DNA of 30,372 nucleotides from a virus (taxonomy: Duplodnaviria > Caudoviricetes): positions 1-30,372 of IMG/VR virus record IMGVR_UViG_3300027365_000045, one strand, 5' to 3'. The notes under the pieces are model-generated. The model searched no databases. It was not told the origin of the DNA and saw only the letters and a list, made by a program, of their open reading frames with translations. Below, in pieces: positions 23,742-26,251 of this stretch; the first letter of the stretch is position 1; each line of letters begins with the position of its first letter. Both the position numbers and the translations under genes were made by a program.

Positions 23742-23840
23742 TATTGTCGCAATCTTCGCCACGGCTCGCGCAGTTGCTAAATCACTTCCGTCTTTCCGGC
23801 TGCCAAGATGGTGATCACCTCCATCATTTGCCATTGCTGG

Positions 23841-25494: not shown

Positions 25495-25546
25495 AAAGAT
25501 ACGCACTGGCTCTGGAAGATGAAGAGACTACGGTTGTGGGTACTTG

Positions 25547-25649
25547 TGAGTGCTTTGCTGGGATGGATTTGAACCACCGACCCAAACCCGATAAGCAATG
25601 GCAATATCGAGTCATACTCTAACCATCTGAGCTACCAACAAAACACTCA
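25547..25649 (-). ncRNA. tRNA-like RNA (core 25555-25641) with enlarged anticodon arm, inside a 15-bp stem
   Basis: U8A9, D arm GCUC-AGAUGGUUA-GAGU, T arm GGUGG-UUCAAAU-CCAUC; 9-bp arm with 11-nt loop in the anticodon position; no CCA. Confidence 0.75.
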
Positions 25650-25868
25650 AAACTACCGGCTGTCTGCTTCCAGCCCGTCAAACCGAATCGCCACGATGGT
25701 TAATCGCCATTCCGGGGAAAGTTGTCAAACCCTGGCTATCTCATTCACCTCTCTCTCAAGCGGTAAAAGGTAGGCAAACCCGCTTGTTCAATTACCTGAA
25801 GTGCTCCGCATGGGAGTCATGCATCACAGCTACTTCAGAGGCCCGCATGAGGTACGCGGTGCTAAAAC

Positions 25869-25943
25869 TGGAGCATCTGGTGGGAATCGAACCCACATTT
25901 TCTGGGTGGAAGCCAGACGTAATTTCCAAACTACGACAGATGC
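25869..25943 (-). tRNA. tRNA-Gly (anticodon UCC)
   Basis: 75 nt: GCAUCUG/CAGAUGC acceptor, UCUGG-CUUCCAC-CCAGA anticodon arm, GUGGG-UUCGAUU-CCCAC T arm, discriminator U, encoded CCA. Confidence 0.95.
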
Positions 25944-26079: not shown

Positions 26080-26218
26080 CCAGATTCGGTTACATGGAAC
26101 TGGAATACCATGAAAGCGCGTTGGCCGTTAGGCTGCTGCTTTAAACTCTGTATCGTTTGCATTTATCTTTGTGGTTCGTTCCTTAATCACCGCAAAGTCG
26201 CTCGCGAAAACTATCTGG
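26080..26218 (-). ncRNA. tmRNA mRNA-like-domain mimic encoding tag ANDTEFKAAA
   Basis: AUAAAU GCA AAC GAU ACA GAG UUU AAA GCA GCA GCC UAA (26160-26128) inside a domain closed by CCAGAU/AUCUGG. Confidence 0.7.
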
Positions 26219-26222
26219 TTTC

Positions 26223-26251
26223 AATATAGCCGCATCCTTGCGACTGTGCAA
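26223..26251 (-). promoter_or_regulatory. sigma70 promoter of the ncRNA unit
   Basis: TTGCAC-17 nt-TATATT with an A-rich upstream region. Confidence 0.75.

What the first reader, a model, noticed from the sequence alone, without database searches (positions are those of the whole stretch)
25547..25649. tRNA-like RNA with a 31-nt anticodon arm locked in a 15-bp acceptor helix
Seen: canonical D and T arms, but the anticodon arm is GACUCGAUA/UAUCGGGUU (9 bp) with loop UUGCCAUUGCU. The acceptor stem extends without a break to 15 bp (UGAGUGUUUUGUUGG/CCAGCAAAGCACUCA, two G-U pairs) and the 3' end reads A-GCA, not N-CCA. The G-U pairs only work on the - strand, which argues for selection on RNA structure rather than decay. 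Inference: it cannot decode normally, so it may be an elbow mimic (RNase P processing signal or decoy for anticodon nucleases) or an anticodon-less partner of the tag module. It lacks the G3-U70 alanine determinant and keeps a D stem, unlike a real tmRNA TLD.
Basis: partly seen in the sequence, partly recalled or inferred. Interest (0 to 1): 0.78.

Follow-up and report, generated by a model that had tools for sequence, protein, structure and literature searches.

The report
Phage tRNA scaffold displaying conserved loop
This phage carries a tRNA-shaped sequence whose anticodon arm is too long to read codons, and related phage RNAs keep the same 11-base loop on top of differently spelled stems, so the tRNA shape likely serves as a stable scaffold that would present this loop to a host partner not yet identified.

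Summary
The long 'acceptor' helix and the non-CCA end belong mostly to a carrier stem that holds unrelated cargo in 7 of 7 sister-phage loci. The tRNA-specific cargo is 25638-25559, with an intact D/T core.

The conserved feature is the 11-nt loop UUGCCAUUGCU. In IMG/VR, 13 of 25 loop-plus-T-loop hits are tRNA-shaped RNAs with this loop closed by covarying stems (7 of 10 arm pairs change on both sides). A model built without the window ranks it first of 122 matches. Relatives occur in 11 of 5,426 E. coli genomes; RefSeq calls the three I opened pseudo-tRNA-Gly. The scan noted this family before on other DNA (e1-1903102, e1-1938988); the window is a divergent member.

Decay, an intron and a tmRNA-partner role are not supported. 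The family was collected by its loop, so loop invariance is partly by construction. Best reading: a non-decoding scaffold that displays the loop, likely as bait for a tRNA-binding host protein. Antisense pairing (23S rRNA 2325-2333, or a phage site) is the rival. I have no expression data.

The parts
25547..25649 (-). tRNA-shaped RNA as reported (carrier helix plus tRNA core)
   Evidence: model R1 hit 25642-25551, 54.7 bits
25559..25638 (-). swappable cargo, equal to tRNA positions 4-68 (D arm, long arm, variable loop, T arm)
   Evidence: Logan contigs X2 and X3 join 25558 to 25639 with 41 other letters between; L085 shares the flanks
25594..25604 (-). 11-nt loop UUGCCAUUGCU, the family's conserved display element
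   Evidence: 11 of 11 identical in 12 of 13 IMG/VR family loci and 10 of 11 in L314; upper six pairs of the arm share only 1-5 of 12 letters with five compared relatives
25584..25614 (-). 31-nt arm in the anticodon position, with a 9-bp stem
   Evidence: covariation in relatives, 7 of 10 pairs
25616..25632 (-). D arm (GCUC / AGAUGGUUA / GAGU) with G15, G18, G19
   Evidence: sequence, Rfam alignment
25562..25578 (-). T arm; a 22-nt stretch over it is identical to a plasmid-borne tRNA-Asn
25639..25657 (-). 5' strand of the conserved carrier stem; supplies acceptor pairs 1-3
25540..25558 (-). 3' strand of the carrier stem; supplies the A-GCA 'tail'
26223..26250 (-). sigma-70-like promoter consensus at the head of the non-coding island
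   Evidence: 9 of 12 match; 3 found against 1.8 expected, so weak alone; the stretch recurs in L001, L003, L005, L047
25476..25494 (-). intrinsic terminator-like hairpin closing the island before the holin
26128..26160 (-). neighbour, separate cargo: tmRNA-like tag frame ANDTEFKAAA*
   Evidence: permuted tmRNA 26.7 bits, below gathering 47
25869..25943 (-). neighbour: tRNA-Gly(TCC) with encoded CCA
23828..23838 (-). exact 11-nt complement of the loop in a downstream intergenic element (candidate target, not established)

Best explanation
The element is a tRNA-shaped cassette in a swappable slot of a phage non-coding island, with an intact elbow and an arm too long to decode, and it likely works as a stable scaffold that would hold its conserved 11-nt loop out as bait for a host tRNA-binding protein, most plausibly a tRNA-attacking defence enzyme. 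Shown: the structure, the slot architecture, the family, and covarying stems under a constant loop. Inferred: transcription from the island promoter; release from the carrier by host processing enzymes (RNase III and/or RNase P); protection by the tRNA fold; and a protein partner. The loop's first six bases repeat U32-A37 of host tRNA-Gly(GCC) in anticodon register, which is the reason for preferring a protein partner.
For: Slot: 7 of 7 sister loci keep the carrier with non-tRNA cargo. Carrier pairs 5-10 are 96% paired within loci and 64% when strands are cross-mixed. Three of three further runs laid show replaced cargo. Family: 13 of 25 scan hits, in late-leader and terminase-portal positions of different phages. 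Pair counts on 9 distinct rows give 95.8% paired, 10 pairs changed on both sides (7 in the arm), and 0 of 500 shuffles as high. Model R1, built without the window, scores it 54.7 bits, first of 122 matches in 100 sources, with the next at 44.8. Core contacts U8/A14, G15/C48, G18G19 with U55C56, U54/A58, G53-C61 are all present (sequence). The first 7 loop bases match the E. coli Gly(GCC) loop at 6 of 7. An engineered tRNA scaffold with an insert in the anticodon stem-loop is recognised by E. coli factors (PMC3753655, passages). Phage tRNAs counter tRNA-cleaving defences (PMC11464382, PMC11555353; titles and abstract starts only).
Against: Members were collected with the loop as pattern, so loop constancy is partly built in. 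A loop-independent model search of 50 related records found no further member (best 36.8 bits), so it neither tests nor contradicts invariance. The Gly resemblance is marginal: 154 of 3000 shuffled loops do as well, Val(GAC) ties it, and the whole arm is no closer to any of 54 canonical arms than controls (491 of 600). The tool warns that related sequences can beat the shuffle control, and most double changes come from L312 and L314. The window copy has no variant homolog of its own: L220 is identical. Its 5' leader is fully paired and it lacks encoded CCA, which may hinder RNase P maturation (my knowledge). No partner protein is identified.
Confidence: 0.45

Rival explanations
1. The scaffold displays the loop as an antisense seed that base-pairs with an RNA: host 23S rRNA 2325-2333, or a GCAAUGGCAA site in a phage transcript.
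For: Loop positions 2-10 pair perfectly (9 bp, -15.8 kcal/mol in isolation) with E. coli 23S nt 2325-2333; the variable position 11 lies outside the match. The window has an exact 11/11 complement at 23838-23828, spanning exactly the loop (0.05 expected; 332 of 20000 shuffled loops). That site is kept in Eta-like relatives.
Against: A 9-bp match to the rRNA operon arises for 1454 of 20000 shuffled loops, and several target sets were tried. Three of 5 near-complete proviruses with the RNA have no second GCAATGGCAA. The 10-mer occurs 31 times in K-12 against 41 for the control. No shared cis partner lies within 800 nt in 15 members. Relatives without the cargo keep the 23838 site. The 23S site sits in a hairpin.
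Confidence: 0.25
2. The tRNA shape is only a processing or stability signal (RNase P punctuation) for the island transcript, and the loop is kept for folding or by recent shared descent.
For: tRNA-shaped or T-loop cargos of other kinds recur in the same carrier slots (L216, L340, L342, L344). Real tRNAs sit in these islands.
Against: All 7 sister loci fill the slot with non-tRNA cargo, so no elbow is needed there. Stems next to the loop differ at 7-11 of 12 letters from the window while the loop is kept.
Confidence: 0.15
3. The family is a charged, non-decoding tRNA mimic (His-like G-1:C73-CCA) that engages synthetases or EF-Tu, and the window copy is a degenerate or differently matured form.
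For: 10 of 13 IMG/VR loci have G-1:C73 plus CCA. G-1:C73 suffices for HisRS charging of mini- and microhelices (PMC9976931, passages).
Against: The window has U-1:A73 and no CCA, L294 has A73-CCA, and L292 and L314 lack CCA. The end is carrier-derived and varies while the loop does not.
Confidence: 0.07
4. It is a decaying tRNA pseudogene, as RefSeq labels the E. coli relatives.
For: RefSeq 'pseudogenic_tRNA tRNA-Gly' in 3 of 3 records opened; rare (11 of 5426 genomes); no encoded CCA in the window.
Against: Compensatory changes in the arm and T stem, an intact core, and the same loop in different phage contexts.
Confidence: 0.04
5. It is the tRNA-like (acceptor) partner of the neighbouring tmRNA tag module.
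For: Same island, about 480 nt apart.
Against: It has G3-C70, not G3-U70, and keeps a D stem. Pairing with the tag module is not beyond shuffles, and the co-fold is -70.4 against -74.0 separate. The 951-nt island search hit 620 phage records, the listed top ones over the tag module, whereas no record covers the element. The 7 tag loci read show no such RNA next to the tag.
Confidence: 0.03

Closest known systems
Engineered tRNA scaffold for recombinant RNA (Ponchon/Dardel system; PMC3753655, passages read)
   Same: Acceptor, D and T arms kept; anticodon stem-loop turned into a hairpin carrying foreign sequence
   Different: Natural, with a fixed 11-nt loop; the acceptor is fused to a phage carrier helix; the window copy has no encoded CCA
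RefSeq 'pseudogenic tRNA-Gly' of E. coli prophages, e.g. E2348C_RS28480
   Same: Same family: D arm, long arm, identical loop, T arm
   Different: Those have a variable-arm hairpin and G-1:C73-CCA. The window has a 5-nt variable loop, another carrier and another phage type. The 'pseudogene' label conflicts with the covariation.
Bacterial and phage Y RNAs, YrlA (PMC4201824, passages read)
   Same: Non-coding RNA mimicking the D/T elbow, found in phages
   Different: YrlA has the stem-loop between its T and D arms in the acceptor position and is encoded next to Ro60. Here the order is that of a normal tRNA. I saw no Ro60-like ORF beside it, but ran no protein family scan.
Oversized phage tRNA genes: KVP40 pseudo-tRNAs 3-5 and Lak-phage tRNA 'introns' (PMC6784885, passages read)
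   Same: tRNA core with conserved extra sequence in the anticodon region
   Different: Unrelated inserts. Here the extra length lies on both sides of the loop, so a single excision cannot restore a 17-nt arm.
Phage C4/CI antisense RNAs and T4 RNA C/D (recalled from memory; search listings only)
   Same: Small phage RNAs cut from long stems or tRNA clusters by host enzymes
   Different: No Rfam C4 match here, and no demonstrated antisense target

Membership tests
canonical decoding tRNA | D and T arms with invariant elbow bases | tested here: met
canonical decoding tRNA | 17-nt anticodon arm (5 bp plus 7-nt loop) | tested here: not met
   31 nt, 9 bp plus 11-nt loop; ARAGORN negative
canonical decoding tRNA | single-stranded N-CCA end, encoded or added | tested here: inconclusive
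   not encoded, and paired in the precursor; addition after trimming is not testable here
intron-containing tRNA | one excision restores a canonical anticodon arm | tested here: not met
   10 nt lie on each side of the loop in the window and relatives; the arm is no closer to 54 canonical arms than controls (491/600)
tmRNA tRNA-like domain / acceptor piece | G3-U70 alanine determinant, no D stem | tested here: not met
   G3-C70 and a 4-bp D stem; Ala identity from PMC9976931; absence of a D stem in tmRNA is recalled
tmRNA tRNA-like domain / acceptor piece | pairing with the coding piece | tested here: not met
   19/300 and 44/300 shuffles as good; co-fold less stable
tRNA-Gly (GlyRS substrate) | U73, G1-C72, C2-G71, G3-C70, C35, C36 | tested here: not met
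   window has A73, U1-A72, U2-A71; only G3-C70 and a GCC-like loop fit
HisRS substrate | G-1:C73 | tested here: not met
   window has U-1:A73; met in sequence together with CCA by 10 of 13 relatives
YrlA-type Y RNA | T-before-D arrangement around an acceptor-like stem-loop | tested here: not met
   normal tRNA order; no Y RNA hit in Rfam; PMC4201824
UUGCCAUUGC-loop tRNA-shaped phage RNA (undescribed family, this report) | D arm GGUUAGAG, 9-10 bp arm closing the 11-nt loop, T arm, acceptor continuous with a carrier stem | tested here: met
UUGCCAUUGC-loop tRNA-shaped phage RNA (undescribed family, this report) | hairpin in the variable region | tested here: not met
   present in 13 of 13 relatives, absent in the window
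any functional small RNA | a discrete transcript is made | not testable with these tools
   only contigs were served for the runs found

The most novel reading that the evidence does not exclude
Enterobacterial phages carry a natural tRNA display platform: host enzymes mature a tRNA-shaped RNA that exposes a fixed 11-nt loop, and the loop acts on host translation, either by trapping a tRNA-cleaving defence enzyme or by pairing with 23S rRNA 2325-2333. It would be one of many interchangeable RNA effectors swapped through carrier stems, now hidden in RefSeq as pseudo-tRNAs.
Probability: 0.35. Interest if true: 0.85.

Novelty: new variant of a known kind. Interest (0 to 1): 0.6.

Why it matters
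Phage 'pseudo-tRNAs' are usually dismissed as debris. Here one such family shows compensatory stems under a constant loop across different phage types, which makes the question directly testable: mutate 11 bases and keep the fold. A laboratory-studied strain (E2348/69) carries a member at known coordinates, so existing transcriptome data can be checked at once. If the loop baits a defence nuclease or pairs with rRNA, it adds an RNA-only counter-defence or translation-control route, and a natural counterpart of the engineered tRNA scaffold.

Tried and rejected
BLAST of the element against phages, E. coli genomes and plasmids gave only short matches of at most 43 nt; the family cannot be reached from the window by similarity. 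The metagenome scan returned one identical copy, L220, which is not independent. The GTDB scan of the carrier flank gave one unrelated match, so no host or prophage was found for this phage. A generic long-arm scan (119 loci, 98 distinct counting the window's own) held no arm like this one, and its 52-nt gap limit excluded the long-variable-arm relatives. Two of 7 hits of the carrier scan (L221, L223) were chance and were dropped. Twelve of 25 loop-scan hits lacked a D arm at the right spacing or a stem closing on the loop and were dropped. An origin of the arm from tRNA-Gly(GCC) or another canonical arm was not above controls. Kissing with the tRNA-Ala(GGC) loop (6 bp) was matched by 272 of 3000 shuffles. 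Expression: 4 of the 6 runs on record as RNA were laid, and no listed contig covers 25596-25632; this proves nothing. The model search used 50 of 81 intended records. BLAST with L266 or L314 found no full-length member among 50,697 phages or 72,556 plasmids.

Full report
Setting. The window is a tailed-phage fragment close to Serratia phage Eta (major capsid protein 93.5% identical). The finding lies on the - strand in a non-coding island of about 780 nt between the head genes and the holin. The island runs from a promoter-like site (26250-26223) to a terminator-like hairpin (25494-25476). It also holds a tmRNA-like tag frame (26160-26128) and a tRNA-Gly(TCC).

Observation. The region folds at z = -3.82. 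A basal run of 9 pairs occurs in 0.18% of arm shuffles. Rfam calls it a tRNA at 38.9 bits, and ARAGORN does not. The tertiary-contact bases of the elbow are all present (read).

The outer helix is a carrier. Seven sister loci (Eta, L003, L005, L014, L047, L084, L085) keep the same stem at the same place with non-tRNA cargo; stem plus cargo spans 43-73 nt. Carrier pairs 5-10 are 96% paired within a locus and 64% when strands are mixed between loci. L085 matches the first 11 pairs exactly. Contigs from three other runs join across the slot with 41, 41 and 34 other letters. So tRNA positions 4-68 (25638-25559) are the cargo, while acceptor pairs 1-3 and the 'A-GCA end' are carrier letters.

The loop defines a family. 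Looking for complements of the loop, I found the same 11 bases in locus L266, in a tRNA-shaped RNA with a different stem. A scan of IMG/VR for the loop followed by a T loop gave 25 stretches. Thirteen are tRNA-shaped with a stem closing exactly on the loop, and 12 were dropped. The upper six arm pairs share only 1-5 of 12 letters between the window and five relatives, while the loop shares 10-11 of 11. On 9 distinct relatives, 7 of 10 arm pairs change on both sides, and no shuffle of 500 reaches the observed values. Relatedness can inflate this control, and L312 and L314 supply most of the changes. A model built from ten relatives without the window scores the window at 54.7 bits, first of 122 matches in 100 sources rich in tRNAs and long-armed look-alikes. 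Eleven of 5,426 E. coli genomes carry a member. The three opened lie between terminase and portal on the opposite strand and are annotated pseudogenic tRNA-Gly. L294 lies before holin- and lysozyme-like ORFs, as the window does (ORF identity judged by eye). The relatives have a variable-arm hairpin and mostly an encoded CCA (11 of 13, ten of them with G-1:C73), whereas the window has neither. Many relatives are near-identical, and L306 is not independent of L334, so the number of independent lineages is about five or six. Earlier notes of this scan (e1-1903102, e1-1938988) describe this family in E. coli prophages; I found the family before seeing them. The main caveat is that members were collected by the loop. 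A loop-independent model search of 50 related records found no new member, so invariance has not been tested without bias.

What the loop does. Four leads were tested, and none is decisive. (a) Anticodon mimicry: the first seven bases match the E. coli Gly(GCC) loop at 6 of 7, which 154 of 3000 shuffles equal and Val(GAC) ties. (b) Host rRNA: positions 2-10 pair perfectly with 23S nt 2325-2333, which 7% of shuffles equal somewhere in the operon. (c) Own transcript: an exact complement lies at 23838-23828 (1.7% of shuffles) and is conserved in Eta-like phages. It is absent from 3 of 5 proviruses that carry the RNA and present in relatives that lack the RNA. (d) Kissing with tRNA-Ala(GGC): 9% of shuffles. 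No shared cis partner was found. Because no RNA target is common to all members except possibly rRNA, and the elbow is fully kept, I commit to a scaffold that presents the loop to a tRNA-binding protein (0.45), with antisense action as the main rival (0.25). Transcription, processing and the partner are inferred, not shown; the sequencing runs available gave contigs only.

Rejected. A partner role for the tag module fails on G3-C70, the D stem, the lack of significant pairing and separate distribution. An intron fails because the extra length lies on both sides of the loop. Simple decay fails on covariation.

Known context. No Rfam family other than tRNA matches the window element. Of 18 scan loci searched at gathering level, only L294 and L314 give a tRNA match over the element, and three more scanned by E-value give none. 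Ten full-text searches showed no description of this family in their listings. The library lacks most subscription journals, and I read no supplements; large tables of candidate phage RNAs could list it. I read passages of PMC3753655, PMC4201824, PMC9976931, PMC6784885 and bioRxiv 10.64898/2026.05.13.724894 (no mention of this element in the passages shown). I read the abstract of bioRxiv 10.64898/2026.09.02.748885. The PARIS and retron papers were seen as listings only. C4/CI RNAs, T4 RNA C/D and RNase P substrate rules are recalled. tRNA cores with enlarged anticodon regions are common in phages: many of the 98 distinct scan sequences, a gut-phage family with two pairs changed on both sides, and the KVP40 pseudo-tRNAs. 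The kind is therefore known, and this loop-bearing family appears undescribed.

Verdict. It is a real, selected, non-decoding tRNA-shaped RNA cassette and a divergent member of a small phage family now mislabelled as pseudogenes. I rate it a new variant of a known kind, interest 0.6.

Noticed in passing
window 26217-26021 (-): tmRNA-like tag module (ANDTEFKAAA*). The top listed BLAST matches of the island are to this part, unannotated in most phages, with tags such as ANDDVVLMAA* and ANEEMYLAVA*. Earlier scan notes cover it.
   Followed up: partly
window 23840-23735 (-): Conserved intergenic element before the scaffold gene, shared with Eta and Edwardsiella phages, with no Rfam match. It starts with the loop's exact complement, which overlaps a GCAA-capped hairpin and an ATG whose frame is not conserved.
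   Followed up: partly
window 26032-25951 (-) and L237-L275: A second carrier stem (ACAGGTAAGAGCATT ... GTGCTCTTTCCGTTGTG) holds 37 distinct cargos in 54 loci; 8 of the 37 carry a T-loop motif.
   Followed up: partly
L098, L107, L108, L124, L126, L131, L139, L147, L166, L168, L198, L202: A separate family of tRNA-shaped RNAs with a long, length-variable anticodon arm and no encoded CCA, in contigs of mostly about 100 kb; two arm pairs change on both sides.
   Followed up: partly
L234:88-338, L236:6302-8214, L276-L279: KVP40-type pseudo-tRNAs 4 and 5 with branched inserts are conserved across Vibrio phages, down to about 80% identity.
   Followed up: partly
L340:1501-1631, L342:1501-1633, L344:1580-1713, L216:1390-1480, L001:1972-2052: Further tRNA-shaped cargos with unrelated multi-hairpin middles in GTTGTGGTG...CACCACAAC-type carriers.
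   Followed up: no
L292, L306 (downstream of the element): Another hairpin module carries GCCATTGC in sense orientation (GCCATTCC in L243, L266, L302), inside a helix.
   Followed up: no
window 26397-26257 (-): 46-codon ORF ending in a lysine run, just before the island promoter; present in L003 and L005, absent in Eta, L047 and L085 (read by eye).
   Followed up: no
window 25943-25869 (-): The tRNA-Gly(TCC) has an unusual D arm (3 bp, GUAG/UAC) and anticodon loop CUUCCAC; none of three sister records searched has a tRNA, and a fourth has tRNA-Met.
   Followed up: no
window 16457-16395 (-): Sub-threshold match to Rfam int-alpA (30.3 bits, gathering 35.8) between tail genes.
   Followed up: no
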